A DNA stretch of 64,000 nt from Rhizophagus irregularis (taxonomy: Eukaryota), in NCBI RefSeq assembly GCF_026210795.1, contig NC_089433.1, forward strand, positions 2,170,001-2,234,000, read 5' to 3'. The notes under the pieces were generated by a model. That model did not search any database and was not told the origin of the DNA. It saw nothing but the letters and a program-made list of their open reading frames with translations. A program made the translations under genes and the position numbers. Numbering within the stretch: position 1 is the stretch's first letter; each line of letters begins with the position of its first letter. Positions 4,385 to 53,108 of the stretch are shown here, piece after piece.

Positions 4385-4992
4385 ATGGCCGGAAATCAAC
4401 AACAACAACGTAAAGGAAAATGGTCGCCCGACGTAAGTCAAGACATGATTTCATTTAATAATTAAATGTTTAAATGCGCATTTATTTTTAACTGAATACT
4501 TCTTCAGGAGGATAATTTATTAAGAAGTCTCGTAGCTCAATATAGCGTTGATGGTGAAGACATTGATTGGTTTATCTTGGAACAAAATTTTAATGGTATG
4601 AGAGACTCTAAGCAAATTCGTGAGAGATGGGTTAATCATTTAAATCCTTCAAGTAAATATTCAAAATTCTTTTTTAAAAAAAAAAAATTTATATATACAG
4701 TACATATATATATTTTTCTTTTGAATTTTATACATACTAAACAAAGATTCTTTTTATTTTTGTTTTAGTCAAAAAGAGAAAATTTAATGAAAGCGAAATA
4801 AAAATTATTGAAGATGAATGTTCTAGACATAAATTTAAGTGGGCAAAAATCGCGAAGAAGATTCCTAACGCTACTCCTCTCATGATTAAAAATTTTTATA
4901 ATAATAGATTAAAAAAGAAAAATAATTCTAATAGAAGACAAAATAATTCAAGCACTACTATTCCTATTATTACTGTTAATAATTTTAACTAA
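4385..4992 (+). CDS. Two-repeat (R2R3-like) Myb protein, short, lacking the C-terminal motif
   Basis: Exons 4385-4432, 4508-4652, 4769-4992. MAGNQQQQRKGKWSPD|EDNLLRSLV..IDWFILEQNFNGMRDSKQIRERWVNHLNPS|IKKRKFNESE..KWAKIAKKIPNATPLMIKNFYNNRLKKK..N*. Confidence 0.9.
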
Positions 4993-5505
4993 TATGATGA
5001 TATCTTAAATATATATATATATTATCTAGTTATTAATTAATATAATACAACTTAATGAATAAAATATATCAATATAAAATAATACATAAATGAAAAAAAA
5101 GGTAAACTAAAATATAGAATTATGTAGTCTTATTATATTTACAGAGACACCGCAGTAAGTGTCGTTTAAATGTTATAAAGTATAAGTTTAGTATTTAAGT
5201 AAATTAGAGGTGAATAATAATAAATCATATAATGAAGGGTGTTCTTATTTAAAAAGGTGTATATTAAATAGAATACTAGTAAGGCTTTTGGGTATTTTTT
5301 CGTTTAGATTTTAAAAAGAAAATTATTAGTAATAGAATTAATATAATAAATTTGATTAATTCTAGCCTTATCTCATTCCTAAGAATCCTAATTAAGGTGT
5401 CCTTAATTTACGTTTAACAGTCCTTCTTTTAAAGTTGGCATAAAAAATGCATTGTTAGATATTAGTAAGATTTCCAAAAATGTTTTTTTTTTTGCTAACA
5501 ATCAA

Positions 5506-6622
5506 TTAAATGATAAAATATAATAGGTACATACATATAATATTATTTAAAATATAAATTATATCCATTTTTGGATTTGGATTTAAAAGAAAATTAATCG
5601 TAAGCTTATAGGGTATAATTACTGTGATAGCTGGTTGAACATTATTGGCATTATTTCTGAAAAATCAACAACATTTTAGCATATTATAAATACAGTGTAA
5701 TGTCTCACAAATAGGGATCTAGTAACAAAAAATACTCACTGCGGAGGAATGACAATTGGGACAATTGGCTGTATTGGCGGTATATCTATAAAATATAAAT
5801 AATGATATAGAAACATATATTACCCATCAACACAAATTTAAAATGATATGATCGTGTAACACATTTTATCAATCTTTGATATATTTTTAATATGTAAAAA
5901 CACTTCAAGTGTAAGGGGCAAAAGATATATTCGTTCTTAACATCATTTGATAATATCTTCTCTTTCAAAACAACATTGCTTTTAATTACTCATTAAGTTT
6001 CCTTCAATCAATGAATATACATATAAAAGTGCAAAGATCATCAAAAACCCAAGGCCCCAAACTGGCTCCAAACTGGCCCAAACTGAACCTACCTTATCTA
6101 TATAATATTACTTTTCAACTAGACAATAAATGTTAACTATCTTACAGATTACTCAACTATCTAACTACCTGACGCTGTCATGACGAACCTTACCGATATA
6201 TATTTTTGGACGTATTATAAACTGCATATTTTAAATTGAAACTTACTATTAAGTTCGGCAAATCTAAAATTTTTAAATCCCATATTTTATTATTAACTTA
6301 GAATAAAAAATTTAAATATATTACAAAGGAAGGAGAAAATTTTTTTTTTACTTTTTTCTACAATCTTGCGCTGTTTTCGTTTCAAGTAAAGTTCCGATTT
6401 TATTCCAATCTTGACCATGTTCGTTAACCAACTGAAGAAGTTGATTTATCTCCTACGCATTTTAGATATGATCATGATAAGCATTTTGTAATATATAATA
6501 TAATCTATAATTAAATTTCTTAGGAAAAAGTCGATTTAAAATGTGTACGTATACAGTACATGTTCAAACCAACAAGGACCTCGTCTTTGTAAATTGCGGG
6601 TTTGGTGTTGTTGCTGATTCAT
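5506..6622 (-). CDS. Single-repeat Myb/SANT protein with two C-terminal motif copies
   Basis: Exons 6622-6560, 6452-6352, 6263-6247, 5785-5740, 5656-5506. MNQQQHQTRNLQRRGPCWFEH|EINQLLQLVNEHGQDWNKIGTLLETKTAQDCRKK|FAELN|..YKLTINFLLNPNPKMDIIYILN. The middle exon choice is uncertain. Confidence 0.78.
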
Positions 6623-6878
6623 TATATAATACTAATACAAAAAAGAACGGATTAAAGTAGATTTTTAAGATGTGTAAGTTTGATTAACCTTTTTATTTAT
6701 GTTCATGATATGGGTTTAAATTGAGGTGTTTGGTTCGGTTCCTTTTTATAAACTATAAATCGTCATGGACTTCGCCACGCGATTGATTAACCGTTACCGT
6801 TTATAGTTTTTTTATAATATTAAGCACTGAATGTTCTAGTCGGTTACATGTGGTTTACCTACACCTTAAAATAGGAAG

Positions 6879-9800
6879 GTAATAATGAATGGTGTTGCGC
6901 CCATGGAACGCTGCAAGAATTTAAAAGAAAGTCATTTTGGTGCAGATCTACAGAGAATGAAAGGATTTAGGATGAACAAAGATGTCATTTTATTATGTCA
7001 ATAATATTAATAATTTTATCGTTAAAGATGGAGCTTTTTTTTAAAAAAACTTTGATAAAAATTTTGAACATGCTCTGTGATTGATATCATGTAATCTTTA
7101 ATTCGTGAATTTTATTTAAAAAAAAAATAGAGATTATTTAAAATTTCAACAATTTCTTTATAATTTATTAGCATTAATAATCAACCTTGAATAAAAAACT
7201 ATCTTTATTTGATAATATTGTATATTCGGATTTATCTTTTTTTTTTGCGCTAGATGTTATAGTACATGTATGATAATAATATGAGAACTAAATATATCGA
7301 AAAATTTGAGCTTTATAACGTATTTTTATGAAATCCAAACTTAATATCTTCAGCTATAAACAAGAAAGAACGTAGTAATTTTTAAACCCATTTAAATTAT
7401 ACACATGAGTTTAATTGTAATTCTTCAGACTTTTTGCAAATACTTTTTCTTTTTTGCAATAATTAAAAGGAAATAAATTTTATTTAAATGCGCAGATGGT
7501 CATCATTTGTACTACCTTAACAAATTCTAATAAGAAATGTTCTCTTTTTCTTGGCATTTTAAGGAAAAAAAAGGAACATTTTTGGAAATTTGACCAACAA
7601 TCTAAATAGAAAATTCCATTTATCGCTGTAATGAACAGGTCATCCGAATTTCTTTCTGTTGGAGTTTTCTCATAATTCTGTAATTCAATTCTAGAGATTT
7701 AGAGAGTACAAATACAAATGTATGCTTTAAGTAAAAAGATAATTAAAAAACATTATATATAATATATTCATTTGATATGGTTATAGTTATAAATAGCATG
7801 AATGTATTTTAATTTAGAATAATCCTAACGCATGAACAAAGATATATATGTACGCCCAAGTCAATCATAATATATTACTAACCAGAACAAGGCTTAGTAG
7901 TTTTTTAAACTGCGGACAAAAATCTACTTAATAATATTCCGCAACCATGGGAAATGAATTTTCATGTCCCATTGGAAGGTGTCAGCCTTATATAAATAAA
8001 TAAATATTAAAAAAAATTTTACTTAATTTTGTATTAATATTTATATTAAAATTATTAAAATTATTTAGTTTAAAAAAGTAAGAATATTAGATAAACGTAT
8101 TTTTACTTATTATTTTTTTTTAAAAAAAAAAGCACTAATGAATTTACCTGATAAATCACTTCTTTCAAGTTATAAAACAAGTTGATCTACTTCACCCGCA
8201 GACAAAAAAAAAAAGTTTTTGTTATGTTGTGTAATTCACATGGTAGTATGTTTGTAACATAAACGTAAATGAGTGTGAAAGTATGGTATCGGAAACAAAT
8301 CCTATTTGAGATTCCGAACCGAAAATGAAAGGTCGAAAAAGAGAATCAGATTACCAAAAACGCAACATCGTAAGGCTATAAAATTTCTATTATTATTAAA
8401 ATGTGAATTACATTATGCATAAGCTATGATAACAAGAATAACCTAGATATCGTCATCTTATGTTTTTGACTTTTTTTTGTGTATGACCTCTATGGAATCT
8501 TTTAGTTATTAATTTTCCGATTTATATTTTTATGAAACGCCAATTTTTTTTTTATGTCAACCAATCGAATCTTTCGCAGCTTGTGCTAACTAAATTTAAC
8601 ATATTTAGTTATTTATAGCAATAACTGCTTTATTAAATTTACGCCCAAACTCAATTTCATGTACGTAATAACCGTTCTTGTGAAAATATTCACTATTAAA
8701 TCTTTTTATTTTTTGTGTCGTTTTTTCATTATGTTTTTTGCGTTTCGTATTACTTAGTATAATATTATAGAATTAGCCGAAAATAGTAACAATTATGAAG
8801 AAAACCTTACAAAAACATTTTAATATAAAAGTTCGAAAAAAAAAAATATTCATATAATTATTGTGCAATGTAACTTCTTGCGTTTTTTTATTGCCATTGA
8901 ACAAGATTCTTATTCGTTGATATAATACTTGTGACACGAAATTCTATACATTTCTTAGGTTTGCAATTTTGCAATAACAAATAGTAATAGTGTTCCATTC
9001 AAAAATTTGAGTTAACTACAATTGGTCTTTGATGTTACAAAAAAAAAATTCTCTCTTTTAAAGTACTACTTTTTTTGATCAAGCTTCAAAGGTTAAACTT
9101 ATTCTGGCAACTCAAAAGATATACACATTCTAATAAACTAAATACTGAGGGGGGTAATCCAAGTTCAATGTAAATGAATGGGTTGCCAATTTTAGGGGTG
9201 TCTAAAGCCGTGTTCTATCACGTGATTTTCCAACTGGTAATGGATATGTTACACAAGTTAAAAATAGTGTAACTTTAAAATAGATAATAATAGTGATCAA
9301 AAAATATTTAGTCAAAAAAGTTAACCGTTAAACTGCCCGAGTCTATACTAATAAATAAAGGATGTATACAGAAATCTTCATTAGTAAACTTTTAACGGTT
9401 TTTTTTGCGGGATAATGAAATATAAATATGCCCTGTTTCCTCCAATGTTATAGCCTTATATAACTCGAAATTTTTGTTTTTTTTTTGAATTTTTCTCAAC
9501 TTTTTAAGTACTATTCTCTTGCACTATAATTTAGTATTTTACTTATTCTACTGCTACCAATATATAGCCAGTGGTTTATCGTACAATATAATCATCCTCA
9601 CACGGTTTCTCTTTTTCTTTCTTTATAACCGTTGTAAACATTTTATTAATATAATATGGTAGGAAATCGTAAAGGAAGATGGATTCTTGACGTAAGTCTC
9701 TCTTTATTAATTACTGCGGTTGTATAGATAATTATCATTCATCTTATGTTTAAACTTCATCAATTTAAATGTTCAGGAGGATAGGTTATTAATCCGTCTC

Positions 9801-10996
9801 GTAAATGATGGAGAAGATATTGATTGGTCTGTCCTGGAATAAATGTAATAATGAATGGCGTTACGCCCATGGAACGCATCATTTTGGTACAGATCTACAG
9901 AGAATGAAAGGATTTAGGATAAATAAAGATGACATTTTATTATGTCGATAATGTGATTAATAATTTTATCGTTTTAAAAGTGAAAATATAAAAGAGCTTT
10001 TTTTTAAAAAAACTTTGGTAAAAATTTTGAACATGCTCTTAATTCGTGAATTTTATTTAAAAAAAAATAAAAAAATAAAGATTCTTTAAAATTTCAACAA
10101 TTTCTTTATGATTTATTAGCATTAATAATTATCCTTAAATATAAAACTATCTAAATCTTTATTTGATTATATTGTATCTTCGAATTTATCTTTTTTTTTA
10201 TTTGCGCTAGATGTTATAGTACATATATGATAATAATATGAGAACTAAATATATCGAAAATTTGAGCTTTATAACGAATTTTTATGAAATTCAAACTTAA
10301 TTAACTTCAGCTATAAACCAAAAAGAACGAAGTAATTTTTAAACCCATTTAAATTATATGCATGAGTTCAATTGTAATTCTTCAGACTTTTTGCAAATGC
10401 CTTTTTTTTTTTTAATAAAATAATGAAATTAGTAAGTTAGTATTAGTTTAGCAAAGACAAGATTTAAACAATAATTAAAAGGAAATAAATTTTTATTTAA
10501 ATGCGCAGAATGGTCATCATTTTGTACTACCTTAACAAATTCTAATAAGAAATGTTCTTATTTTTTCTTGGCATTTTAAGGAAAAAAAAAGGAACATTTT
10601 TGGAAATTTGACCAACAATCTAAATAGAAAATTCCATTTATTGTAATGATGAAATTAAACAGGTCATCCGAATTTCTTTCTGTTGAAGTTTTCTAGAGAT
10701 TTAGAGAGTACAAATATAAATGTATACTTTAAGTAAAAAGATAATTAAAAAACATTATATATAATAGATTCGATATGGTTATAGTTATAAATAGCATGAA
10801 TGTATTTTAATTTAGAACAATATGTCCTAACGCATGAACGAAGATATATATGTACGCCCAAGTCAATCATAATATATAACTAACCAAACTTAACAAGGCT
10901 TAGTAGTTGTTTTTAAACTGCGGCAACAAATCTGCTTAATAATATTCCGCAACCATGGAAAATGAATTTTCATGTCCCATTGGAAGGTGTTAGCCT

Positions 10997-11029
<33 letters not shown>

Positions 11030-13108
11030 GCATTTTTTTTAAAAAAAAAATTCTTAATTTTGTATTAATATTTATATTAAAATTATTTAATTTAAAAAAG
11101 TAAGAATATTTTTAATACTAAATAAACGTAAATTCCTGTTCGATAACATGATTTATTATTATTATTATTTTTTTTTAAAAAAAAAGCACTAATGAATTTG
11201 GACACTAATTATTCGTTTAAAACCTGATAAATCACTTCTTTCAAGTTATAAAACAAGTTGATCTACTTCTCCCGCAGACAAAAAAAAAAGTTTTTTGTTA
11301 TGTTGTGTAATTCACATGGTAGTATGTTTGTAACGTAAACGTAAATGATATGGTATCGGAAAAGCAAATGTGAATCCTATTAGGCTACACAAACATAATA
11401 TTCGGCAAATCTTATTTGAAATTTCGAACCGAAAATGAAAGGTCGAAAAAGAGAAACAGATTACCAAAAACGCAACATCGTAAGCTATTATTATTAATAA
11501 AATGTGAATTACATTATGCATAAGCTATGATAACAAGAATAACCTAGATATTGTCATCTTATGTTTTTGACCTTTTTTTGCGCACGACCTCTATGGAATC
11601 TTTTAGTTATTAATTTTCCGATTTTATATTTTAAAAAAAAAATGAAAACGCCAATTTTTTTTTTATGTCAACCAATCGAATCTTCCGCAGCTTGTGCTAA
11701 CTAAATTTAACATATTTCATAAACTTTAGTTATTTATAGTAATAATTGCTTACGCCCAAAACTCAATATCATGTACGGTATAACCGTTCTTGGGAAAATA
11801 TCACTATTAAATCTTTTTTTTTTGTGTCGTTTTTTCATTATGTTTTTTGCGTTTCGTATTACTTGGTATAATATTATGGAATTAGCCGAAAATAGTAACA
11901 ATTATGAAGAAAACCTTACAAAAACATTTTAATATAAAAGTTCGAAAAAAAAAAAATATTCATATAATTATTGTGCAATGTAACTTCTGGCGTTTTTTTT
12001 TTATTGTCATTGAACAAGATTCTTATTCGTTGATATAATACTTGTGACACGAAGTTCTATACATTTCTTAGGTTTGCACAAATAGTAATAGTGTTTCCGA
12101 CTCAAAAATTTGAGTTAACTACAATTGGTCTTTGATGTTACAAAAAAAAAAATTTCTCTCTTTTAAAGTATTACTTTTTTTGATCAAGCTTCAAAGGTTA
12201 AACTTATCCTGGCAACTCAAAAGATTATATATTATATACACTGTATGCATACAACATTCTAATTTCTATAATACTAGGGGGGTAATCCAAGTTGAATGTA
12301 AATGAATGGGTTGCCAATTTTAGTATAATATATTATATCTATTATATCATTGTAATAATAATAGTAATTTAACGTGATCATAAATATTTAGTTTCGTGCA
12401 ACCAAAAAAAATGTAACGGAGTAAATTTTAAACTGTCCCGGATTATAAGCCTATACTAAATAAAGTATGTATACAGAAAATCTTCATTCATCCAATTTCT
12501 AACTTTAGTAAACTTCTAAAGTTCTTGCCCGTATTACGCTGGTTTTTTTGGCGGGATAATGAAAAAATGAAATATAAATATGCCCTGTTTCCTTCAATGT
12601 AATAACCTTATGTAACTCGAAATTTTTTTTTTTTTTTGAATTTTTCTTTTTTTTGTCAACCTTTTTAAGTACTATTTAAATTGTCAACATTCTTTAAATA
12701 TTATTAGTGTAAGAAGAAGTGAGATATATCGTTGTTTCTCTGTGAGAACTATTATACTTCTCTTGCACTATAATTTAATATTTTACTTATTCTACTGCTA
12801 CCAATATATAGCTAGTGGTTTATCGTACAATATTATCATCCTCATACTGTCACTCTTTTTCTTTCTTTATAACCGTTGTAAACATTTTATTAATATAATA
12901 TGGTAGGAAATCGTAAAGGAAGATGGATTCTTGACGTAAGTTTCTCATTATTAATTACTGCGGTTGTATAAATAATTATTCATGGTTGGTATCATTCATC
13001 TTATGCTTAAATTTCATCAATTTAAATGTTCAGGAGGATAGGTTATTAATCCGTCTCGTAGATGAATATAGCGTTGATGGGGAAGATATTGATTGGTCTG
13101 TCTTGGAA
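6879..13108 (+). repeat. ~3-kb tandem segmental duplication (copy 1 ~6879-9842, copy 2 ~9845-13108)
   Basis: Collinear matches throughout, e.g. agatctacagagaatgaaaggatttagg at ~6944 and ~9891, and the Myb first exon at 9656 and 12900. The copies differ by many substitutions and indels. Confidence 0.93.
9656..9842 (+). pseudogene. Truncated Myb pseudogene (5' fragment of the 12900 gene)
   Basis: MVGNRKGRWILD|EDRLLIRLVNDGEDIDWSVLE*. It has a 12-nt deletion relative to the paralogue and a TAA at the duplication junction. Confidence 0.88.
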
Positions 13109-17771: not shown

Positions 17772-19268
17772 AAATCTAAACCCTGTACCCTATAATTAAT
17801 TTTATCGATTCTTTATTCAAGTTTATTTTTACGTTCTACCTGTACCTGACATTATTTTAAAAAAGTTTTTTTTTTTTTACAATCCGATGTTCTTACAATA
17901 GAAATTTGGTAAAATAAAACTTCTAGATAAAATTAATGTTCACGAAAAAAAAAATCAAATGTTTAATATTACCTAAAACATCGTCTATAAACTACCATTT
18001 GTCAGTGCGACTTGTTCATTTCCAAAATATATTGAGTATAATGATAATACAGTATAATAACGAATACATGATGTACCGAATTTAGGATTAACCGAAGATT
18101 TTTTAGAAACCATTTCAATACTATAAATTTCGAAGTAACGGAGATCATTATTGATAATCTAAAGTTCCCATGTTAAATGATTTACGAAAACAAAACATAA
18201 CGTAGATTTATCATGTGATTTTCGTTAATCTTTCGAACTATATACCGAAATTTTGGACTTGAACCACGACTTCGGTATAATATACAGTACATATATACAG
18301 TATATATACTGTATACTATATATATTTGAAACAGTGTATTTTCTCGAAATTTCTAAATTAACTAAAATAGAAAGTTACTTAATATTAAAAATCAGAATGT
18401 AATAAATATTTTTTTTGTATGGTATTTATTTACTGTTATTATGATATAATGATGCTTTATAACAATGGATCATGAAATTCGAGTTGCACAACCAAATAAA
18501 AGATGTATTATTAGGCTTTAAAACCGCCTCACTTTATTTTGAGGCGTTAAATGACATTTGAAAAAATCTATCGCTTAGCATCTTGTGTTACTTTGAAATA
18601 CAAATACCAAAAAGAAAAAATTATTCCGTCGCTAACTTATTTAGTCTGTTGATTTTTTAATTAAAAAAAAATTTTTTTTAGTGGTATACTTTCCCTTAAT
18701 TGCTCAACAATGAACTACAATGAGATAAATAGATGAGTAAAAAACCAAAATTGGACATATCAATTTTATTGGTTAAATCATAAAAGTAAAGATTAGATTT
18801 AGACTATTGTTTCCCGATTTTTTTAAAGTAACTGTATTTGAATTATAAAATAAGTTCAACGAACAAGTCACATGATTTTATGATTTTTATGATTTGAACA
18901 AAATAACAATTTTCTTGATTATCTTGGATTCGTATTTTCTGGTTCTCGCTCTTTAAACGAAAATGTATTTTTCTGTTTTTTTTTCTTTAAAAAAATTTTT
19001 TTTTTTTTACAACATAATTGTATTTAAACATCTATAATCATTTATATCATTTGATTTGTAAAGACCTAATAATAATACTCGAATCAAAATATTAAAATTT
19101 GAAACTTATGTGATCGCTGGATCACGTGACAAATACTATTGTCAGTCAGTCTGTGTAACACGAAAACAAGTATTAGCAATTTAAACCTTTTTTTTTTTAC
19201 TTTTTTTTACTCATAATTACAAAACATTCAAGCATTTTGTATTTGAAAATATATCATATTTTTATCAA

Positions 19269-20500: not shown

Positions 20501-20517
20501 GATAGAGTATTGAAGGA

Positions 20518-20618
20518 ATACCACAATATTATATTGATTGATCTTAATGCAAATCTGGAAAAAAAAAAATACCACAATATTATATTGATTGATCTTAACG
20601 CAAATCTGAAAAAAAAAA
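20518..20618 (+). repeat. ~51-bp direct tandem duplication
   Basis: ataccacaatattatattgattgatcttaa(t/c)gcaaatctg(A)n occurs twice. Confidence 0.85.
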
Positions 20619-21980: not shown

Positions 21981-22599
21981 ATGATGAATCAACAGCATCA
22001 ACACAAACCCTCTATACAAAGAAAGAGGCCATGGCTCATATATGTAATATCTCTGTTTTTCTCTTTTACTATACTTTTTTTATTTATTATAATATTTTTT
22101 TTATGATTTATATAGGAAGAAATGTTACTTCATGAATTAGTTAATGAATATGTCAATGACTGGATATTAATCTCATCAAAACTTCAAACAAGGACTGCAC
22201 ATGATTGCAAAATAAAGTATGTCGAACTTTCAAAATCAAGTAGTAAGTATAATTCATAGTGGGCACGGAAGTATGGTATTTCAAAATATTTAACAGTTAA
22301 ATTTGTTCATTTTAACAGTTACACAAAAAAATCGTTTTCAGTAAGTTTTTTTTAATATCCAAATGGCACCAAAGACGTACTGTTGGTCGCCGATTGAATT
22401 ATTGGACATTGGAAGATCATGTGATTTATGATTTATCGCAGCTTACTATTTATACTAAATTTAGATATTATTTAATTTCAGAAATAACGTTAATAATAAT
22501 AATGCGATTCCTCCAACCACTCCCGTGATTGTGGTTCCATCTAATTCTAGACCAATAAATCGAAACCAAAAAATGGATTTGAGATATATAATGAATTAA
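21981..22599 (+). CDS. Single-repeat Myb/SANT protein ending KMDLRYIMN
   Basis: Exons 21981-22043, 22116-22242, 22319-22340, 22482-22599. RKRPWLIY|EEMLLHELVNEYVNDWILISSKLQTRTAHDCKIKYVELSKSS|..RNQKMDLRYIMN*. Confidence 0.85.
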
Positions 22600-23867: not shown

Positions 23868-24658
23868 ATGACTACATACAAAAGAGGACCGTGGAACAAT
23901 TTTGTACGTATTTAAAAATTAACTTTCCTTAAAACTTTGATTAATTGTAACCTTTTAAACTTTATTTAGGAAATTGGAAATCTCATTACTTCTATGAGTA
24001 AACATGGTCGTCATCAAAGGAAACTAATCGAACAAGAAGTTGGAAGAACATTTATCGAATGCGTGAAAAAGTATGGTTTTATTTATTACAACAAAAATTA
24101 ATTTGACTTAACTTTTATTCATTATATTATATTATTTCTTTTTTTTCCAGATATAATGAAATTTTAGGTATGTGCTTACACAGTAGTACAATTATAAAAA
24201 ATAGTACTAGTTTATGATCTAGTATCTTTTTATTAAAATATAAATTTTTATTTTTTATTTTATTTATCTATTTTTTTAGGAGTCCAAAATTACCGTCATC
24301 GTAATCATAGTCGTTGTATTCGTCATATGCGTAATATCCGACAGTGAGTATTTTCAAATTTCACTATACCATAATGTACAGTACCCTCTATATAAATGCG
24401 TCTACTATGTTAAATGTCTTATATAAACTTTATGGTCCTTGGTGCACTTATAGAGAGTTGACTCCATTGCTTTTATTAATGGTTGATATATCACAATCCA
24501 ACTATTATCTAAATTAAATTTTATTTAATTTCAGAAATAATGTTGTTGCCGCTGCTGACAATATTTTAACAATTCCTCCAGTAAATATATCTAATCATAG
24601 GCATCGAAATCCAATTATGGAATGGAGCTACATCCTTAATGATGATTCTAATTCGTGA
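23868..24658 (+). CDS. Divergent single-repeat Myb/SANT protein (second Trp replaced by Arg)
   Basis: Exons 23868-23903, 23970-24070, 24151-24167, 24280-24343, 24535-24658. KRGPWNNF|EIGNLITSMSKHGRHQRKLIEQEVGRTFIECVKK|YNEIL..RNPIMEWSYILNDDSNS*. Confidence 0.8.
24379..24464. mobile_element. Possible small degenerate pogo-like MITE inside an intron
   Basis: TA-cagtaccctctatataa ... ttatagagagttgact forms imperfect inverted termini. Confidence 0.35.
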
Positions 24659-26379: not shown

Positions 26380-27305
26380 ATGAACACTAATCAACAGAAC
26401 CGACAATTTCGACAATTTCCACGCCAGCCTTGGAACGACAGAGTATGTACTTGTATTTTATAATAATTTTTCCCGTTTGTTTAACTAAATTTTAAAATTT
26501 TTCGTAAAAAAAAATATATCTAGGAGGATACCAATCTTATTTTTCTAGTAGATTTTATTGGTATAAATTGGGCACGAATATCTATTGTACTGGGAAGAAG
26601 TGCTTTACAATGCAGGAGGAGGTATGTACATAAAATTATATATTTTTAGTGAATAACGAAAGGTGGTGGTGATTGCTGGTATCGCTGTTGTTGTTATTGA
26701 AGTTTTATTCTTTTTTTTTTTTTTTACCAATTTATTAGGTATCTTAGACTTTTAGCTCTTGACAGTAAGTAATTATATCTTTGGTAAAATATTTTTAATA
26801 ATGATTTCTTTTATATTAATGACCTATTCATATATAATCATTTTACAGATATAGAAAGGTATCGAAGAATATTTCGTAGAAGAGTTAACCGAAGATTTCG
26901 TCAAAGGCATAATCTAGTATCTTTTCGAGGATTTTTCCAAGGAATTCAACTATTAGCTCGACGGTAAGTTTTTTTTTATTTTTTTTTTGTGGTGATAGTG
27001 GTAATATTAAAGAAACACAATGTTGTCAACAACGATGGCAGTATTGTTAGGTCATAATTCTTTCATTTTTTTAAAATAAAAATTTGCTGGTTCAATGGGA
27101 TCAGGATCTTGGACGTAAACTAATTATTAATTTAGAAAGATCGTAATAATTAGTATGATCTAAATTATAATATCACTCACTTCATAATAACCTTGATTAC
27201 AGAAATATCATCCCGACTCGCGATTATAGAATGGATCTGAATCATATTCTAAATACATCTCAGGATCATAGAATGAATATAAATTATATTTTGAGCGTGG
27301 AATAA
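26380..27305 (+). CDS. Single-repeat Myb/SANT protein with Arg-rich linker and two motif copies
   Basis: Exons 26380-26442, 26524-26621, 26739-26764, 26849-26962, 27203-27305. RQPWNDR|EDTNLIFLVDFIGINWARISIVLGRSALQCRRR|YLRLL..RDYRMDLNHILNTSQDHRMNINYILSVE*. Confidence 0.87.
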
Positions 27306-37558: not shown

Positions 37559-38362
37559 ATGAATCAAACAAACTTATTAGTAGTTTCGATTAGAAACCAG
37601 TGGACACCTGGTGTAAATAAACTTTTAGTTTTATATTCTTATTTCTTTTTTTTTAAAAAAAAAAAATAATAATTTTTAACAATGAATACATATATATACA
37701 TATAAATAGGAAGATAGCCGATTAATAACTGCTGTAGATCGGTTTGGGGCCCGTAATTGGAATCGTATTTCCCTTGAAGTTAGGACCCGCAGTTCAACAG
37801 AATGCCAAGCAAGGTTTGTTCAATCATAAATTACTGCGTTGCTTATAACTTAGCATTTACATTAAATTATATAACTTTTTTATTAAAAGATGGCGTCAGA
37901 TAAATTTTAATAATGGTAAAGTAGCATATATTCTTTAAGTGGTCGGCTTAAGTGGTCGGTTTATTTGTAATTTTCAAAATTTTTTAAATATAATTTGTAC
38001 ATAGTGCATCGACCGAATAGAAGATTGAATCAAGGTCTTTTCGACGTTGCTAGAAGAAATTTATATTACATTAGACCTCAAAGATATGCATGTAAGATTC
38101 AAATATTTATTTATATGTTTTACAATTTATTATTATTATTATAATAATGAAATATTTTATTATTATCTGTTATCTGTTATTAGTAAATTTGAATCAACGT
38201 CGATCATTTCAGTTAGGACAAACAATGCAAGCAATGGCAAATCCTATTCAAAATACAATGTCTCTAAATTGTATTTTAACTCATGATAGAAATATTCGAA
38301 TGGAGTTAGGATATATTTTGGAAAATCCCGTACCACATTACTTTCGTAATGACCCTAATTAA
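37559..38362 (+). CDS. Single-repeat Myb/SANT protein with two motif copies
   Basis: Exons 37559-37612, 37710-37813, 37890-37915, 38005-38091, 38184-38362. NQWTPG|EDSRLITAVDRFGARNWNRISLEVRTRSSTECQAR|WRQI..TMSLNCILTHDRNIRMELGYILE. Confidence 0.87.
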
Positions 38363-39644
38363 CTGTATACATATTTGATAAAAATGTAATTTTTTTTAAA
38401 AAAAAAAAAGAGCAAATCCGTTTTTTTTAAATTGCTCTTTTATTTTGTAATTATAGTTGTATTTTTATGTATATAAAAAGTAATCAACTTTGGGCCTCTA
38501 TATCATATGACACGTGTATTATTGAAATTTATCACAGATCAATCTCCGATAACGCAAGTGCATATGTCGTCAGGTGGTGTTGAACGTATTCTAAATTTTC
38601 CAATTTGTTTAATTTTTTTATTAAAAAAAAAAAATACCTTTATTATTCACTAAACATAAAAACATGTACATAAACATATATGTAACCTTATGTAAAAAAA
38701 AATTAAATTTTGTTCTCTTATATGTATATATATAATATATATTGACAAATCATTTTTTTTAATTAAATGAACACAGAAATATTTTACATAAGATTTCTTT
38801 ATTAGGATAAGTGTTAGATCCACGCAAGAATTAAAAATCTTGCATTACAATAATTTATTATCCGAGAAAGACCAGTAAGACTGTGATTAAATGAATGTGA
38901 TAAATAAAAAATTGTTATCTACTATTTATTATGTAACAAGAAAAAAAAGGTGTGATGATTAATAATAAAATAACAGGATTATCATGAAATTAAAGTTTGA
39001 AAAAAATGCAAGTTGATAAATGTGTTACATGTTTTTTTTTTTCAAACAATCCATCCCTTTGTTCCGATTATATTATCATTAATCATCATTATCATCATTA
39101 TCATTAACTTTTTTCTAAATATAATGTCAAGTATTAATGGTTAATGCAATATCTTCAGTAATTCATTTCATTTATCTTTCCTTTTTAATTTTTTTAATTT
39201 TATAAATATCTTTTTTAGAAAATTAAAATTGACCAAATGGAGAAACATATGAAAGAATCAAGTATAAAAGGTCGTTTCGAAAATCAAACCGCCCTTTATT
39301 TCACAAACAACATTTCACAAACAACAATAAAGATGAAGGTTTACAACCAGTTTTCTTTGTTTCGATTATATTACTAATATATAATCAAAGTTCTAAATAT
39401 AATGCCAAATATAAATAGTCCAGTGAAAAGTCACCTTCCAGTTTTGTTTCATTCATATATTGATTTTTCTGTAAAACCTATAGATAAATAAGATAATTAT
39501 GGGTAATTATAAATTAACCCAAATAAGGAGTCGCGAATGGGTATATGTATATATATATTTTATATATATACTGTAGAATATAAAAATTTTTCTTTTAAAA
39601 TATATGCTATTTTTTTCTAAAAAAAAAAATAATAATAATAAACA

Positions 39645-41095
39645 ATGTCCTCTTCTACCGAACAAGTTAAAGGATTTGATACGGAAGAACTCATTAATTT
39701 TTTAAAAGGACGAAATTTACATCTTAATGAAACTCATTATAATTCCCTTCGCCATAAGGAGATCGCCGGGTCAGACTTCCTTAATTACACTCGGGAAGAA
39801 CTTAAAGGTCTCGGATTGGCAATAGGACCAACAAAAAGAATCGAACAGTTGATTAATGAATTGAATACTCAAAGTAACGGTAAGTTCTATAAAATTATTA
39901 TGGATAATTATAAAACCTAAATCACTAAATGACTAATAAATATAAAAATTATTATTTTAATTATTATTTTAAACACACACTCTCTCCTAGATGTGTTAAA
40001 AAAAGGTAAAAAATAAAATCATTTCGAATTTTATTAAAGAATATGCTATTTACTTTTTTTTAAAAAAATAACAATGTTCTCTTTACATTACAAACACCCA
40101 AAGAAGTTGAAGGGTTGGATACGGAAGGACTCATCAATTTTTTAAAAGAACGACAAAATTTACACCTTAATGAAACACATTATAATATCTTCCGTCATAA
40201 AGAGATCACTGGGTCAGACTTCCTTAATTATACTAAAGAAGAATTTGAAGGCTTTGGATTAGCATCAGGGCCAGCAAAAAGAATCGAACAGTTAGTTAAT
40301 GAGTTGAATAATCAAAGTAAGTTCTATAAAATTTATACATTCACCAAATGTCTTTTATATATGCATATATTTTATTTACACATTATTTATTTATTAAATA
40401 ATAACTTTAGTAATTTTCAATTTGTGGACAACTGCTGTAAGCAAAAATTTTTTAATAAGGGTAATCTTTGATTCTTGATTCGCTGATCACAGGCTATGAT
40501 AATGAAAAAATTATGTTGAAGCATGGTTACGGTTGTGTTCGTGGAAATAAGGTGCCCAAAAATAGCATTGGCGAATCATGAATTGTTTAGTGAGTACTTA
40601 ATATTAATCAAGTTGATAACAAAAATAGGAAGATAATCGATTGGTAGCCGTTATAAATCGATTCGGTTCCCGCAATTGGAATCGGATTGCCCGTAAAATG
40701 GGAAATCGTAATCCAATTGAATGTCAAAGAAGGTTATTGTCACATTATTATATGCTAACTGATAAATTTAACTTAATTTACTAAAAGCTGATTTTTTTTT
40801 AAAAAAAAAAAAAGATGGAATTTGATAAATTTTAACGGTAAGATAACTTTTATGTAGCGATAAACTTCTTGCGAATAACTCTAATTTATTTTATATAATT
40901 GTACATATTATAGCTAATCGACCGAGTAGAAATGGTACTAGAAGTTTACATCATAGAAATACATGTAAGAATTTTAAATGTTTTATATATTTCTTTTACA
41001 AGGTATTAAATAATCTTACCGTTATTGATCAAAATACAGCATCTACTAGAGACGTTCGAATGACATTAGGATATGTTTTGAATACATATTCTTGA
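39645..41095 (+). CDS. Chimeric SAM-SAM-Myb/SANT protein ending RMTLGYVLN
   Basis: Exons 39645-39879 (SAM1), 39991-40005, 40104-40316 (SAM2), 40411-40436 (IIFNLWTTA), 40629-40732 (EDNRLVAVINRFGSRNWNRIARKMGNRNPIECQRR), 40815-40837, 40914-40964, 41040-41095. All introns are GT..AG and the frame is continuous. Confidence 0.75.
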
Positions 41096-43535: not shown

Positions 43536-44356
43536 ATGACATCAAATATTCTCAGAGGATTATGGAATGAATCGGTAAGTTATACATATGATGTATAAAT
43601 GCAATGAGAATTAATCTATTAGTAAAAGTATCCTTCTTGACCCGTGCGTAAGTCAAGTCCGATGCTTTCGTACTTCTATTGACGGAAAAATTTGATTTTC
43701 CACGTGTATTGTTTTTACGCCAGATTTCCTATTTGATATTTTTTAATTAATTAATTTTTTTTTTTTTTTGCAGGAGGACGGACGACTTCGTTACCTCGTA
43801 AAGCAATTCAGAATCTGTCATGAACAGGATGAGCAGATCTCTTGGGCAAGTATCTCCTATTACATGGGAACACGAACGGCTAAACAATGTAGAGAACGGT
43901 AAATTATCTACTTTTTAATATATGCACAATAATGTCATCGCACATATTTAACTTATTGTATCTACATTATTTTAGATGGATAAATCATTTGAATGAAACC
44001 AGTAAGTTGAAGCATATGTTACATATTTCTTACGCATAGCTGTGCATCCAATTGTAAACCCTAAACCCTTACTTAACCCTTACCAATCCTAAATTGCAGA
44101 AAGTTTGATATGAATCTTTTTTTTTTTGTTTTTAGTAGATAAATCTCCCTTGAGTGAGGAAGAGGAACGTTACATATTAACACTAAGTCGACTACAGCCT
44201 GATTTAACTTACGTCCAAATTTCCGAAAAATTGCCCGGGAGAACTCCATTAATTGTCAAGAATTTCATTTACAGAGACAGAGCAAAAAAAGCTAAATCCG
44301 CTTTGAGAATAAGAAAGAAGATGAGATTGTCAAACATGTTAAATCCGAGAACTTAA
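43536..44356 (+). CDS. Two-repeat (R2R3-like) Myb protein ending KKMRLSNMLNPRT
   Basis: Exons 43536-43574, 43774-43898, 43976-44001, 44136-44356. RGLWNES|EDGRLRYLV..ISWASISYYMGTRTAKQCRER|WINHLNET|IDKSPLSEEEE..ISEKLPGRTPLIVKNFIY. Confidence 0.9.
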
Positions 44357-45632: not shown

Positions 45633-46456
45633 CAGTCCTGGTCATAAGTATCCATACCCCAATATTTTCTGAAGTTATGTCATAACCTATCCTAAAAATT
45701 TCCAGGATTGACATACAAAATTAGAGGTTCGTACAATATATAAATCAAAAGTTAGATGATTGGGCAAATTTTGTGTTTTATAAAAAATTATCATCTTTTA
45801 CATGAATATTTTCATTTAACCTTTTAGTATATATATATTTTTTTGATATATTAATTTTTAAGTGTCATACACATTTCTCTAGAATTTTTATCAGATTAGA
45901 TACATAGCCAGGGAATTTCAATTATACCATAATCTTTCTTTCACTTTTTCGCGATTTTTGAATGGTGTTGAGGATTATTAATTTTATGCAGTATTTATTC
46001 TAAGTTTTTTTTGCCAATATAAATACTATGCATAAAATGGGTATTAAAGTTCTGCTGAAAGCAAATTGGTTTGCTAAATTCCTGAGCAAAAAAATCACCA
46101 TAAAAATGGATTTTTTGCAAATAATATGATTTTTTTTATTATTTAAGTCTTTATTTTAATGGTATTTTTGGCCCAATAAGTGGCCATAATTTAATTATAA
46201 TGAATGTAAGTAACTATTTTTTTCAAAATTTTACTTTAGTTCAATTGAATATTTACGTACAAAAAACTATTTTGGATAATTTATTAGGAAAATCAACATT
46301 TTGCAGCTAAAATTCATCGATCATCTAACTACTGATTTATTGCACGAACTTCTAATTTTGTAGATTAGTATTTATCTTCAATCCTGGAAATTTTTAGGGT
46401 AGGTTATCACATAACTTCAGAAAATATTGGGGCACGGATACTTATGACCAGGCCTA
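45633..46456. mobile_element. Non-autonomous Tc1/mariner-type element (~824 bp) with long imperfect TIRs and TA target duplication
   Basis: Left end TA-cagtcctggtcataagtatccataccccaatattttctgaagttatg... matches the reverse complement of ~46335-46456 over roughly 100 bp. There is no transposase ORF. Confidence 0.88.
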
Positions 46457-46504
46457 TAAGAAGTCAATTTACAAACTGCATATTAGAATCGGTTGTATTT
46501 AATG

Positions 46505-46562
46505 TTAATTTAGAATGTAATTTAATGACATTCTAACATCACGACGTGAAGTTGCATTTCGA
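46505..46562 (-). other. Orphan Myb-family terminal exon (RNATSRRDVRMSLNYILN*)
   Basis: AG acceptor followed by T-CGA-AAT-GCA. It is homologous to, and in the same phase as, the last exon 48209-48140. I found no Myb exons of its own upstream. Confidence 0.7.
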
Positions 46563-48139: not shown

Positions 48140-48961
48140 TTAATTTAAAATATAATCTAATGTCATCCTAATATCACGATGTGTCGGTGTATTTGAAGCT
48201 GCATTTCGACTAAAGAGAATTAAAACTTTGTAAATATTACAATGTAATTTAACATAAAAATTGAAGTTAATTAAACTAACATAGCATTCCTGAAACGAGA
48301 AGTTTGACGATAATTGACAGCTATTATCAAAAAGAACCTGGTTAAAATGTAATATTTTGCAATTTTTTTTTTTAAAAAAAAATGATAATAATAATTATTG
48401 TTGATTACCTCTAAGTCTTCGAATCATTCTTGGCCTATGGGTGGAGCTAAGATTATGATTAATTTGTAAAAGCATAAATGCTGAAATTTTTGAAATGGAA
48501 ATCATTGAAAAATTAATGCGTGATCACGTGGACTGCCACCGTAATTATTGGGTGCTTACCACTGTAAATAATCCAACTCCATCTTTTAGATAAAAATAAA
48601 ATAATTATTAATATAATTGAATACTGTACGATTAAAGAACGTTCCAAATTACGTTACTGCGCAGTACTGCGCTACTGACGCAAAGAGGTCTAGTAACACG
48701 CCCTAAACATTAATAATATAATAGATATAACATAGTCGCACCTGTTTCGACATTCTCTCGGACTACGAGTTGCAACTTCACGAGAAATATTATTCCAACT
48801 ACGGTTACGAATACCAAACCGATTTACGGCAATGATTAACCGATTATCCTCCTTAAAAAGAAAACCATTTTCAATGATAATGTAATAGAAAAGAAAATAA
48901 AAAAAGTCCTTCTTACAATAGGTAACCATGACGAATTAGAATATGATAATTGTGTATTCAT
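48140..48961 (-). CDS. Single-repeat Myb/SANT protein ending RMTLDYILN
   Basis: Exons 48961-48917, 48851-48742, 48582-48560, 48480-48409, 48320-48281, 48209-48140. SSWLPI|EDNRLIIAVNRFGIRNRSWNNISREVATRSPRECRNR|WSWII..HRDIRMTLDYILN*. Confidence 0.83.
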
Positions 48962-51898
48962 CTTTATTATTAGCGTAAATGCGTCAAAAATAAATAAATA
49001 AATATTTGAAAGTTTTTATATACTAAATTTGAATAAATGTGTATTTTTTTTTTTTGATATTTAATGAAAAAAAAATTAGAGAGAAAGAAAGTGAGAGAGG
49101 ATAAATTCTGTATGAATCAGATAATAAATCAAAAAGGTGAAATAAACTTCAGATTTTTTGTAAAACATTTGATGAACTTTAATCTTTTTTTTATGGCTTA
49201 TTGTGGCTAGTTAAACTAAATACTAGCCACTGTAACTGTGAGAAAAATGGGTTACTAATTAAACCGGAAAAATCTCGTTTTTTAATTAGTTAATATTCGC
49301 ACATAATGTTGCACGAGTACAATGAATTCAATTACGCACCAAAAAGCCATGAAAAGAACAAAGAAAAGCATTAAGGTACTGACTAGCTAAATCAGAGAAT
49401 TTTTAGATGATCTATACACGGATAAAATCAACATGCATGTACTGCAAAAAAAATTAGCCATTAATTTGCACTACGAATTATTAACTTTTTACATCATTTT
49501 AGGTTATCCCCATATTTAGAGAAAGCACCGAAACATCCCTTCAAAGATTAAGATATACTAACTATTTCCTTAGAAAATTGATCACATATCGGTCATTTAT
49601 CGGAGTTTTTATAGGGGGTGAGTTTTTTGCCCAATTTAAAAAAAAGTTAGTCAAAATACATAAATGTCACAATGTCACAATATCCGATACAAAAATCTTT
49701 ACAAGAATTATTTTAAAATTAAATGTTGATCATAGCTAATTAGATAGGTATTTTGTATGTTATCAGCCACTCAACCATACACAATGTGACGATGTAGATC
49801 AATAATAACACAAACCAAAACGTATTATGATGTAATAAACTTTTGCGGATGAAATCTATAAAACGTCCGATATAAAAGTAAATAGTCAAATAGTAACAAA
49901 CATGTTATCAATATATTGTTGTGCGATGCATCTTGGTTATTTTTAAATATGAATAACTCTTTAAAATTTTATGCTAATTTGAAAAGTAAAATCTATGTAA
50001 AATAGTGTGAGCCAGCCAATAAAATCACTTTAATCTAAGAAATCAATCAAATAAAGGTTAGAACAGATGCGCCGCTGCGCACCATATGATTATGCAATTA
50101 AAAATGAGAGCAGTCATAATATCACAGTTTCTGGCATTCTTATTTTGATACATTTTTGGTATAAGTTATTACATAAATAGTAAAACGGCTTGAACTTTCT
50201 CAAATGCATAAATAATCTTTAATAAATGTTTCAGTTCTTTCATTAATTTATCATTAAAAAGAGACTATAAAAATATTAGTACAACTTTAATAATATTATT
50301 TTTCTATAATGCAAATTTATTAAATTTATTCCCTTTTAAAAAAAACATATATGAAAATAGCATATAATATGGTGGGAAAATTCCAAATTTTTTATTTTTC
50401 TCTCGGTAAAATAAATAACTCTAATAACGGAAGAAAAGCGGGGAACTGGGGTAATGATTCAAAGACTGGATAAAGTAAAAAATTTTTCACATCATTATTA
50501 AAAGTGTTGAACTCTGCGAAACTAGTCATAACAAACAAACATTGTTTATTTATATAATAAATATCAAAATTTCTATTGTTCAATTCGAGTCATTGTTGAA
50601 ATAAATGAGGGACAAATTTTTGTACGACACAAACAAATGATTTGGTGCAATTTAGGAAACATAATCATCAAGAAAAAAAAATCTGTCTGCTATTGGATAA
50701 AGTTTATACAATTAATCATCATTTGTATCATTTTGAATCTTAAAGTATTAGCAGAAATTTTCTTTCACGGACTGTTCGCTAGTATTTTCTTAGCAATTTC
50801 AACCCATCTAAATTTATTCTCTTTTCAGCTATTTATTTTGTTTGATGAAATGGGAAAGAATAAGTTATTTACGATCGATGATCAAAGTAAGGATTAGAAT
50901 GAATCTGTTTTGAGTTCTCGTTTCATTGAAATGTTTTTCGATTTTTATTAATTGAAACTATTTTCATAACACCAAATTTAAATATTTATAAATTAATATA
51001 TATTTATTTATTTATATATACGTGTATTTACATATAATGGCGCCAAACTTTATCATTAAAGATTTAAAGTTCATTAACTTAACGGAGTCGTATATTTATT
51101 TTGCAGTCATATTGTTTGTTTGATCATCAAAATATAAAAATATCCATGTAAATAAATCATTAGCAAACTTTGCAATACTTTGAAAAAAAAAAAACATTTA
51201 ATAATTAATCAAAATATTGTCGATCAACGCCAATACCCAAAATTGGGTGGTTGATTGATTGGTTGAATATTTTATGCACAAATCATAATAGAACTATTGT
51301 AATAAAATTGAAAGTGAAAGAGATTAAGTTTATATATATAAATTACGTTTTTAGACTCCTTAAAATCCTTACCAAATTAAATTAAATTAAATAAATTTAA
51401 ACTTTAGGAACAATAAAATGAAATCAATGCTTTGTATATCCAATTTTATCAGTTTCTTTCCGACGATAAATTACTCTTTTTGATCCGGTAAAAACAATTG
51501 ATAATAGATCTCTATTTTGATGTTCGGGCTCGGCTTTTTTTATCCAGTTAAATATTTGTTATTTCAATTGTTCTTTTAGATGCAAGACAACAGTACTTAT
51601 GATTCAAAGTATTTGTAAATTTTATATTTTAGAACAATGTAATTATGCAGACTCTAATTTACTATGGGCTGTAAATATTATAAATACAGTACTAAGTTCT
51701 TCACAAGATACAATTCGTTCATATCAGTCGATAGAATGAAATTTAAATAATAGTTCCTCCTCTCGCTTCTTCTTTTTTCCCTGATTCTTAAAAAACAAAA
51801 TAGATAAATAAATAAATTGGTCTTTTCGCCAATTTAACTTGATAGCTGGCTATACATATTTTACTTTGTTTTCGAATCATCGTTCTTGAATATTAAGG

Positions 51899-53108
51899 AT
51901 GTCTAACCCTAATAATCCGAATAATCCTAATAATCCTAATAATCCGAATATTCCTAATAATCCGAATATTCCTAATAATCCGAATATTCCTAATAATCCT
52001 AATAATCCGAATCCATTATGGTGGACAGATGATGTAATAATAATTTGTTATGTCTCGGAATATTGTTTTAGCTCGCCAACATACAGTCGGCTCTCGATAT
52101 AACGAACCCTCCGGTTTTCACCTCAGTTCGTTATAAGGTTATAGCGAAGAATTTTAAAGAATTTAATTGGTTGATTCATTATAATGAGTATTTGATTGGT
52201 TAGATGTCGCATGTTCGGAAAAATTCGTTTCGACAGTTCGTTATATCGAGAGCCGACTGTAAATTGTTATGATATGATTCACTAAATAATACGTAGTATA
52301 AATTGAATTCTGATTTATGTCAATAGATCACGTAACCGTGAAATTTTGTTAGCGATGTCAGTGAAGACGATATATTTTCTTTTCTTATTCATTATTATTC
52401 TCAAATTTTTAGGAAATCGAACGATTGAATAATGCCGTGTTCATACTTGGTCCTCGTAATTGGAATAATATTGCTCGCCAAGTTAGGACCCGTACCTCGG
52501 TGGAATGTCAAACTATGTATGTTTCGCCCCAATTTGAGTACTATTTGCTTATTATAATAATATTATATTTCGTTAATATTTTAACTGTATATACAACTAA
52601 TGAAGATGGAGACGATTAACATATTATAATTGTAAGTGATATATATTCCTTTAATATGTTACCTCTCATTTATGATTCACTTCATACGAGTTATAGTTTA
52701 ATTGATCTTCCATTTCATTTTAAATATATCAGCAATGAATCTTAATCGTCCTGCAACTTTAAACCTTGGCATGTCTCAAAGATTTGCAGGTAAATAAATT
52801 ATCATTTATTGTATTTTAGACTACATTAAATATAATATTTAACAACAATATTCTTTATTAACAGTCAATTATCGTAATATGGCGTAAGATTTTTTTAAAA
52901 AAAAATACATACATTCATTTATTCGTTTCAATTTAATTTAACAATATAATTATTTTATAGTCAAAACGGTCAAAGCGAAGGTCAAAATTCTATCAGCTTA
53001 ACAGCAATACTTACAAATCCAATACAACAAAACACTAGAATGTCAATAAATTATATTTTGACTCATGATCGTGATATGAGGATGACAATTTATTATATAA
53101 CTATATAA
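51899..53108 (+). CDS. Single-repeat Myb/SANT protein with N-terminal (NPN/IPN)n repeat and 2-3 motif copies
   Basis: Exons 51899-52033, 52413-52516, 52606-52631, 52733-52789, 52865-52883, 52961-53108. WWTDD|EIERLNNAVFILGPRNWNNIARQVRTRTSVECQTI|WRRL..TRMSINYILTHDRDMRMTIYYITI*. Confidence 0.85.
52084..52259. mobile_element. 176-bp pogo/Tigger-like MITE in intron 1 of the 51899 gene
   Basis: Perfect 24-bp TIR cagtcggctctcgatataacgaac, flanked by TA on both sides. Confidence 0.93.

What the first reader, a model, noticed from the sequence alone, without database searches (positions are those of the whole stretch)
4385..53108. Hidden ~49-kb tandem array of 14 small Myb/SANT genes mixing two-repeat factors with single-repeat microprotein-like paralogues
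Seen: 14 spliceable genes share intron 1 (phase 0, three codons after the first Trp) and Myb spacing. Three are two-repeat and eleven are single-repeat, most under 170 aa. They are highly diverged yet keep open frames, and they occur on both strands. Known: plant single-repeat R3-MYBs (CPC/TRY) modulate R2R3-MYB complexes. Inference: this is a lineage-specific, physically clustered regulatory module in which truncated Mybs tune or repress a parental Myb programme. Micro-exons of 17-29 nt make it easy for automated annotation to miss.
Basis: partly seen in the sequence, partly recalled or inferred. Interest (0 to 1): 0.88.

Follow-up and report, generated by a model that had tools for sequence, protein, structure and literature searches.

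The report
Fourteen-gene Myb array in mycorrhizal fungus
The root-symbiotic fungus Rhizophagus irregularis carries a row of 14 related Myb gene-regulator genes, 11 of them cut down to one DNA-binding repeat, and 13 end in a short repeated tag that likely recruits a general gene-silencing protein, so they are predicted to be a family of small repressors.

Summary
Window 4385-53108 carries 14 intron-split Myb genes (3 two-repeat, 11 single-repeat, 2 on the minus strand), plus a broken duplicate and an orphan last exon. The organism is Rhizophagus irregularis.

The array is not hidden: 10 of 14 models equal annotated proteins at 100%. Order is kept in R. clarus and R. diaphanus. One single-repeat gene is spliced in polyA RNA; dN/dS is below 1 where it can be computed.

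The CPC/TRY analogy fails. The kept repeat is the first (R2-type) one, R3 is lost, and the plant bHLH-binding motif is absent.

Its spacing resembles the Tup1-binding motif of yeast MATalpha2. The single repeats have lost the canonical base-contact residues. Best reading, inferred and untested: small Tup1-recruiting repressors.

No paper on the array turned up in ten searches. The scan noted single-Myb arrays before in ascomycetes, apparently another family. Verdict: new variant of a known kind.

The parts
4385..4992 (+). G01, two-repeat Myb, 138 aa, 3 exons; paralogue of G04 without the C-terminal motif
   Evidence: dN/dS versus G04 0.14; groups with a Funneliformis protein
5506..6622 (-). 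G02, single-repeat Myb, 125 aa, 5 exons, two motif copies
   Evidence: identical to annotated P0225
6932..13065 (+). Old tandem duplication of about 3 kb of G04's upstream region (6932-9808 versus 9879-13065), 83-94% identical in blocks
9656..9842 (+). G03psi, broken duplicate of G04 exons 1-2; stop after 33 codons
12900..14178 (+). G04, full two-repeat (R2R3) Myb, 329 aa, with conserved LxxLAxxA-like and terminal MSIxxLL motifs; best model of the ancestral gene
   Evidence: identical to annotated P0226
16622..17771 (+). G05, single-repeat Myb, 169 aa, four motif copies in the last exon
   Evidence: annotated match found only as part of a chimeric model (P0012)
21981..22599 (+). G06, single-repeat Myb, 109 aa, lacks intron 2, one motif
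   Evidence: identical to P0042; orthologs in R. clarus and R. diaphanus
23868..24658 (+). G07, most diverged single-repeat Myb, 113 aa, second Trp lost, one deviant motif
   Evidence: identical to P0064; R. clarus ortholog has the consensus motif
26380..27305 (+). G08, single-repeat Myb, 134 aa, two motif copies
   Evidence: identical to P0022
31948..32687 (+). G09, single-repeat Myb, 114 aa, two motif copies
   Evidence: identical to P0234
35329..36009 (+). G10, single-repeat Myb, 101 aa, poly-Pro linker, two motif copies
   Evidence: identical to P0232; no read depth over its Myb exons in the runs laid
37559..38362 (+). G11, single-repeat Myb, 149 aa, two motif copies; spliced in RNA
   Evidence: introns 37814-37889 and 37916-38004 in raw polyA reads, 38092-38183 in one contig; fold predicted
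39645..41095 (+). G12, single-repeat Myb (40411-41095) predicted to be fused behind two SAM-domain exons (39645-39879 and about 40100-40316)
   Evidence: fusion not tested with RNA; public models differ
43536..44356 (+). G13, two-repeat Myb with degenerate R3, 136 aa, one terminal motif; shares intron 2 with the single-repeat genes
   Evidence: identical to P0016
46505..46562 (-). Orphan copy of G14's last exon with acceptor, motif and stop; no Myb exon found upstream
   Evidence: 72% DNA identity to G14's last exon
48140..48961 (-). G14, single-repeat Myb, 119 aa, 6 exons, one motif
   Evidence: identical to P0237
51899..53108 (+). G15, single-repeat Myb, 162 aa, Asn/Pro-rich N-terminus, two motif copies plus a decayed third
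   Evidence: no annotated match among proteins retrieved

Best explanation
The array is a set of tandem paralogues that likely arose from a two-repeat (R2R3) Myb gene, in which eleven copies lost the second repeat but kept, and often duplicated, a C-terminal R-M-x-[LI]-x-x-I-L-N motif that is predicted to dock on the co-repressor Tup1, so the products likely act as small transcriptional repressors. Shown: gene structures, shared intron positions, R2-type repeat, motif enrichment and conservation, conserved gene order, splicing of one member. Inferred: each single repeat reaches chromatin through its own diverged third helix (its own short site, or a partner protein), since the canonical Myb base-contact residues are gone; the tail then recruits Tup1-Ssn6, with 1-4 copies setting avidity. 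The array evolves by birth and death (broken duplicate, orphan exon, SAM fusion).
For: Common origin: intron 1 at Trp+3 in 14 of 14; a phase-2 intron 3.67 codons after the helix-3 Cys in 11 of 14, including two-repeat G13; a phase-1 intron 9-13 codons after it in 14 of 14, where the two-repeat genes splice to R3. R2 type: the single-repeat profile scores c-Myb R2 at 46-50 bits, R1 at 41 and R3 at 26; top fold match is c-Myb repeat 2, though at E 0.008. Motif: 13 of 14 genes, 22 copies, against 2.0 genes in 5000 shuffles, maximum 7; 0 of 149 unrelated multi-repeat Mybs carry the strict form. It is kept in G04/G01-type proteins of R. clarus, Glomus cerebriforme and Funneliformis geosporum while the linker is lost or rewritten, and in 3 of 3 R. 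clarus single-repeat orthologs. MATalpha2 binds Tup1 through an IxIxxLL-spaced N-terminus (PMC4943189; PMC4901127). R. irregularis has expressed Tup1 and Ssn6 orthologs (table rows in PMC8401276). dN/dS 0.30-0.46 in six of the seven closest single-repeat pairs.
Against: No binding to Tup1 or to DNA was tested. My motif pattern was drawn from these same sequences; the literal published pattern [VI]xx[IL][LM] matches only 5 of 14 against 2.1 expected (P 0.04), because most copies have Leu at the first position. The source paper calls its own fungal result 'not especially robust' and notes such helices arise by chance. The tail is not confidently folded (pLDDT under 55). G09-G10 gives dN/dS 0.71. 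The repeat tree is unresolved, so it does not show a single origin. G01 lacks the motif.
Confidence: 0.45

Rival explanations
1. Decoy or microprotein model: the single repeats no longer bind DNA, and the proteins soak up Tup1 or a partner shared with the two-repeat Mybs, so they tune (possibly de-repress) a programme passively.
For: None of 11 single repeats keeps the Glu at Cys+2 or the Asn at Cys+6 that all three two-repeat genes share with c-Myb, and 1 of 11 keeps Lys at Cys-2 (that these are base contacts is recalled). Up to four motif copies would suit a sponge.
Against: Nine of 11 repeats are net basic, +2 to +6. The third helix is identical between R. irregularis and R. clarus in G11 and G06 while the repeats overall are 81-85% identical. 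The CPC/TRY features are absent.
Confidence: 0.2
2. The motif is a docking site for something else, such as a coactivator, another co-repressor or a degradation factor, so the proteins are DNA-binding regulators but not Tup1 recruiters.
For: The hydrophobic spacing is generic; most copies miss the literal published pattern. G04 carries a second conserved hydrophobic motif.
Against: Copies are flanked by Arg/Lys and Asn, not acidic residues as in typical activation motifs (the contrast is recalled knowledge), and G04's own motif fits the MATalpha2 spacing exactly.
Confidence: 0.17
3. Birth-and-death drift: most short copies are weakly expressed, weakly constrained by-products of duplication, and only G04 and G13 matter.
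For: A broken duplicate, an orphan exon and a SAM fusion lie in the array. G10 had no reads. G07 is 31 of 47 identical to its R. clarus ortholog in the repeat.
Against: Frames stay open at about 30% median identity, pN is below pS in 87 of 91 pairs, and three single-repeat orthologs are intact and in order in R. clarus.
Confidence: 0.15
4. The repeats are transposon-carried Myb/SANT domains (Harbinger-type).
For: AM fungal genomes are rich in repeats (general knowledge); decayed ORF-like stretches lie at about 19.2-20.6 kb and 28.5-29.2 kb.
Against: Hits are PF00249/PF13921 only; 0 of 119 other ORFs upstream of 54.5 kb hit any Pfam family while 2 of 4 flanking-gene controls did; position is fixed across three species.
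Confidence: 0.03

Closest known systems
R2R3 Myb factors: c-Myb R2R3 and fungal FlbD-like proteins
   Same: G01, G04 and G13 have two repeats; G13 aligns to c-Myb R2R3 in register; FlbD-like proteins are among the named hits of the exon-2 profile.
   Different: Eleven paralogues keep only R2 with changed helix-3 residues; the FlbD-like hits checked lack the terminal motif (0 of 8 outgroup proteins); orthology to FlbD is not shown.
Yeast MATalpha2 / EH1-like Tup1-recruiting repressors
   Same: Short motif with the same hydrophobic spacing attached to a helix-turn-helix domain (PMC4943189, PMC4901127).
   Different: Motif is C-terminal, in 1-4 tandem copies 12-16 residues apart, on a Myb repeat, mostly with Leu at the central position; binding untested.
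Plant single-repeat R3-MYBs (CPC/TRY) and RADIALIS-type microproteins
   Same: Small proteins with one Myb repeat beside longer relatives (family features recalled; seen only in reference lists and a search listing).
   Different: R2-type repeat, no bHLH-binding motif, and an extra conserved effector-like tail that passive competitors lack.
Yeast Dot6 (Myb-domain PAC-binding factor linked to Rpd3)
   Same: Fungal Myb-domain protein that binds DNA and a co-repressor complex (PMC2659770 passages).
   Different: Much larger, not in an array, different co-repressor; no homology beyond the Myb fold was tested.
Arrays of small single-Myb genes in ascomycetes (scan notes e1-7653711, e1-7566228)
   Same: Neighbouring, diverged, intron-split single-repeat genes.
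   Different: The larger was filed under PF22980, which these proteins do not hit; relationship untested.

Membership tests
Myb DNA-binding superfamily (PF00249/PF13921) | Three-helix repeat with spaced Trp core | tested here: met
   13 of 14 exon-2 peptides hit; G11 model has three helices at pLDDT 81-94 matching c-Myb repeats
R2R3 Myb (G01, G04, G13) | Two adjacent repeats with canonical R2 helix-3 residues | tested here: met
   G13's R3 is degenerate
R2R3 Myb (G01, G04, G13) | Binding to the Myb consensus site | not testable with these tools
   needs a DNA-binding assay
CPC/TRY R3-MYB microproteins | Single repeat is R3-type | tested here: not met
   R2 46-50 bits versus R3 26 bits; intron positions match the first repeat
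CPC/TRY R3-MYB microproteins | bHLH-interaction motif [DE]Lx2[RK]x3Lx6Lx3R (pattern recalled) | tested here: not met
   0 of 15 models
CPC/TRY R3-MYB microproteins | No effector region beyond the repeat | tested here: not met
   conserved terminal motif in 11 of 11 single-repeat genes
EH1-like Tup1-recruiting repressors | Hydrophobic spacing as in MATalpha2 (IxIxxLL), outside the domain and conserved | tested here: met
   13 of 14 genes with the relaxed pattern; conserved in orthologs
EH1-like Tup1-recruiting repressors | Literal [VI]xx[IL][LM] pattern | tested here: inconclusive
   5 of 14 versus 2.1 expected, P 0.04; 9 of 14 if Leu is allowed, P 0.0004
EH1-like Tup1-recruiting repressors | Binding to the Tup1 WD40 domain and repression | not testable with these tools
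Metazoan EH1 (Groucho) | Leading Phe/Tyr | tested here: not met
   Met in 20 of 23 tabulated copies, never Phe or Tyr, as expected for Tup1-type sites
Transposon Myb/SANT (Harbinger-type) | MADF/trihelix-type Pfam domain and transposase partner | tested here: not met

The most novel reading that the evidence does not exclude
A conserved chromosomal bank of minimal repressor modules: each gene pairs a differently tuned single Myb reader with a multivalent Tup1-docking tail whose copy number (1-4) sets repression strength, with one member gaining a polymerising SAM pair; together they form a combinatorial switchboard for life-stage transitions of a coenocytic symbiont.
Probability: 0.15. Interest if true: 0.75.

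Novelty: new variant of a known kind. Interest (0 to 1): 0.5.

Why it matters
Transcriptional control in arbuscular mycorrhizal fungi is poorly known. This gives a defined set of 14 candidate regulators in the model species, with a mechanism that can be tested in yeast without transforming the fungus. If right, it shows fungi arriving at small single-repeat Myb regulators by a route different from plants (keeping R2 and multiplying a co-repressor tag), and gives a natural series for mapping what Tup1 recognises, which PMC4943189 describes as poorly defined. Without those tests it is an annotated tandem family expansion of moderate interest.

Tried and rejected
No whole genome was held, so dispersed Mybs of this genome could not be compared. 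The run search listed no RNA holder on record; this is no evidence either way. Only 33300-39160 was laid with reads, so 12 of 14 genes and the SAM fusion have no RNA test; 90-93% of laid raw reads were partial matches that ran on into unlike sequence and were ignored. The search of 1.84 billion representatives was swamped by multi-repeat Mybs, with one single-stretch hit in the 150 shown, so it says nothing on range. The word-based search found single-repeat relatives named only from Rhizophagus, among 336 candidates; this is weak evidence for lineage restriction. The metagenome scan gave 4 loci without neighbours: no synteny and no ortholog DNA for dN/dS. The LSM7-ISU1-PLC1 anchor could not be compared in other genomes. 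The repeat tree (48 columns) left 28 of 46 branches open. Atlas searches gave generic Myb clusters below 0.9 and no usable hit for the tail. A complex prediction of G04 with G11 was not queued and gave no result. Six locus tags were in no paper's text and not in two supplementary files of PMC11035146. A missing tail exon for G01 was sought and not found.
Full report
Setting. The window is 26% GC and intron-rich. Named proteins identical to its products identify Rhizophagus irregularis. ISU1 and PLC1 domains and a Fe/Mn-SOD-like gene lie downstream.

Observation. A pattern scan found 14 Myb exon-2 starts; a fifteenth, broken one was seen by eye at 9777. Models built by coordinates have open frames and 53 of 53 GT-AG introns. 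Pfam Myb families hit 13 of 14 exon-2 peptides. An exon-2 profile over all six frames found no further intact copy.

Not hidden. Ten of 14 models (G02, G04, G06-G11, G13, G14) equal annotated proteins at 100% over full length. One annotation numbers them in window order from CAB5190942 (G02) to CAB5190954 (G14); I saw 12 of those 13 numbers, and the gap falls where G05 lies. G01 and G15 were not retrieved; my searches were capped, so that does not show they are unannotated.

Conservation. In R. clarus, orthologs of G04, G06, G07 and G11 carry accessions GES89071, 66, 65 and 57, each with a longest contig of 1,230,704 bases, in the same order. In R. diaphanus, G04, G11, SAM/G12, G13 and G14 are RGB26139 and 43-46. 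This is synteny inferred from accession order, not from DNA. G04/G01-type proteins reach Glomus cerebriforme and Funneliformis geosporum; named single-repeat relatives came only from Rhizophagus, by a search of limited reach.

Expression. Four runs were laid on 33300-39160, which holds 2 of the 14 genes. For G11, introns 37814-37889 and 37916-38004 appear in both raw polyA runs (4 and 5 reads in X22, 11 and 11 in X23), and one low-depth contig skips 38092-38183; all match the model. G10 had no depth over its Myb exons.

Selection. In the repeat, pN is below pS in 87 of 91 pairs. The seven closest single-repeat pairs give dN/dS 0.30-0.46 for six and 0.71 for G09-G10; G01-G04 gives 0.14 over 111 codons. 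These rest on 46-53 codons with dS near saturation, and pairs were ranked by identity, which favours low values.

Origin. All 14 share intron 1 and a phase-1 intron 9-13 codons after the helix-3 Cys; 11 share a phase-2 intron at +3.67, including two-repeat G13. In two-repeat genes the phase-1 intron leads into R3; in the others it leads into short low-complexity exons. The kept repeat is R2-like by profile score and by fold search. The tree could not resolve the group. I infer duplication of an R2R3 gene with loss of R3. Turnover continues: a 3-kb duplication left a broken G04 copy, G14's last exon has an orphan twin, and G12 has lost its start and reads in frame behind two SAM exons. Public models disagree on that fusion, and my trial splice had one acceptor misplaced.

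The motif. Thirteen genes end in one to four copies of a motif with consensus R-M-[SNDT]-[LI]-N-[YFH]-I-L-N, mostly 12-16 residues apart. Shuffled tails give 2.0 genes on average, at most 7 in 5000. The pattern was derived from these sequences, so the independent evidence is its retention in orthologs from three other species where the linker diverges and its absence from 149 unrelated Mybs. In one search a global alignment misplaced the Funneliformis motif; the multiple alignment places it correctly. Copley 2016 (PMC4943189, parts 1-3 of 5 read) and Burglin and Affolter (PMC4901127, passages) describe the IxIxxLL N-terminus of MATalpha2 as a Tup1-binding EH1-like motif. Copley's literal pattern matches 5 of 14 here (P 0.04) and he calls the fungal evidence not robust. 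Tup1 and Ssn6 orthologs are listed with expression values for R. irregularis in PMC8401276 (passages and table rows).

Recognition helix. G01, G04 and G13 keep Lys, Glu and Asn at Cys-2, +2 and +6 as in c-Myb (their role as base contacts is recalled). No single-repeat gene keeps the Glu or the Asn. Yet nine of 11 repeats stay basic, and helix 3 is unchanged between R. irregularis and R. clarus in G11 and G06. This suggests gene-specific recognition, of DNA or of a partner, and does not decide between them.

Mechanism. Most likely small repressors that recruit Tup1-Ssn6 (0.45). Rivals are decoys (0.2), another docking partner (0.17), drift (0.15) and transposon origin (0.03). The CPC/TRY model fails three defining tests.

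Literature. Ten searches showed no paper on this array, judged from listings and abstract starts; the library lacks most subscription papers, including key AM fungal genome papers, and supplements I could not see may list these genes. PMC11199622 (passages) counts 21 Myb-like genes in Aspergillus nidulans, so 14 at one locus is a large local expansion. PMC2659770 (passages) was read for Dot6. Two earlier scan notes report single-Myb arrays in ascomycetes; I did not check them.

Verdict. A real, conserved, annotated but apparently undescribed array; the testable new element is the multiplied co-repressor-type motif. New variant of a known kind, interest 0.5.

Noticed in passing
window 39645-41095 (+): Two tandem SAM-domain exons (82% DNA identity) sit in frame ahead of G12; the SAM pair and the join to G12's first exon are also in an R. 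diaphanus model, suggesting a SAM-SAM-Myb fusion.
   Followed up: partly
window 46562-46505 (-): Orphan copy of G14's last exon; it has the same phase, so it could be an alternative last exon of G14 or a relic.
   Followed up: partly
window about 13.9-14.1 kb (G04 tail): A second conserved motif, LxxLAxxA-like, precedes the terminal motif in all five full-length G04/G01-type proteins aligned.
   Followed up: no
L001-L003: Three metagenome contigs hold a broken two-repeat Myb of the G01/G04 type, with the same introns and in-frame stops or frameshifts, from another AT-rich fungus.
   Followed up: partly
window about 19200-20600 (+): Decayed fragments that look like a protein-kinase gene (by eye); no Pfam hit in the ORFs scanned.
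   Followed up: partly
window 28512-29150 (+): GC-richer 135-codon ORF with internal short duplications; no Pfam hit; possibly a mobile-element relic.
   Followed up: partly
window 53294-54003: Tandem repeat of about 170 bp units, 80-95% identical, directly after the last Myb gene.
   Followed up: no
window 45637-45711 and 46378-46452; 52084-52260: A 75-bp inverted pair at 95% identity, and by eye an inverted-repeat insertion in G15's long first intron; both look like miniature transposons.
   Followed up: no
   Followed up: no
P0012, P0047, P0048: Some public models fuse neighbouring array genes (G09 with G05, G10 with G11) into artificial chimeras, which can inflate two-repeat counts.
   Followed up: partly
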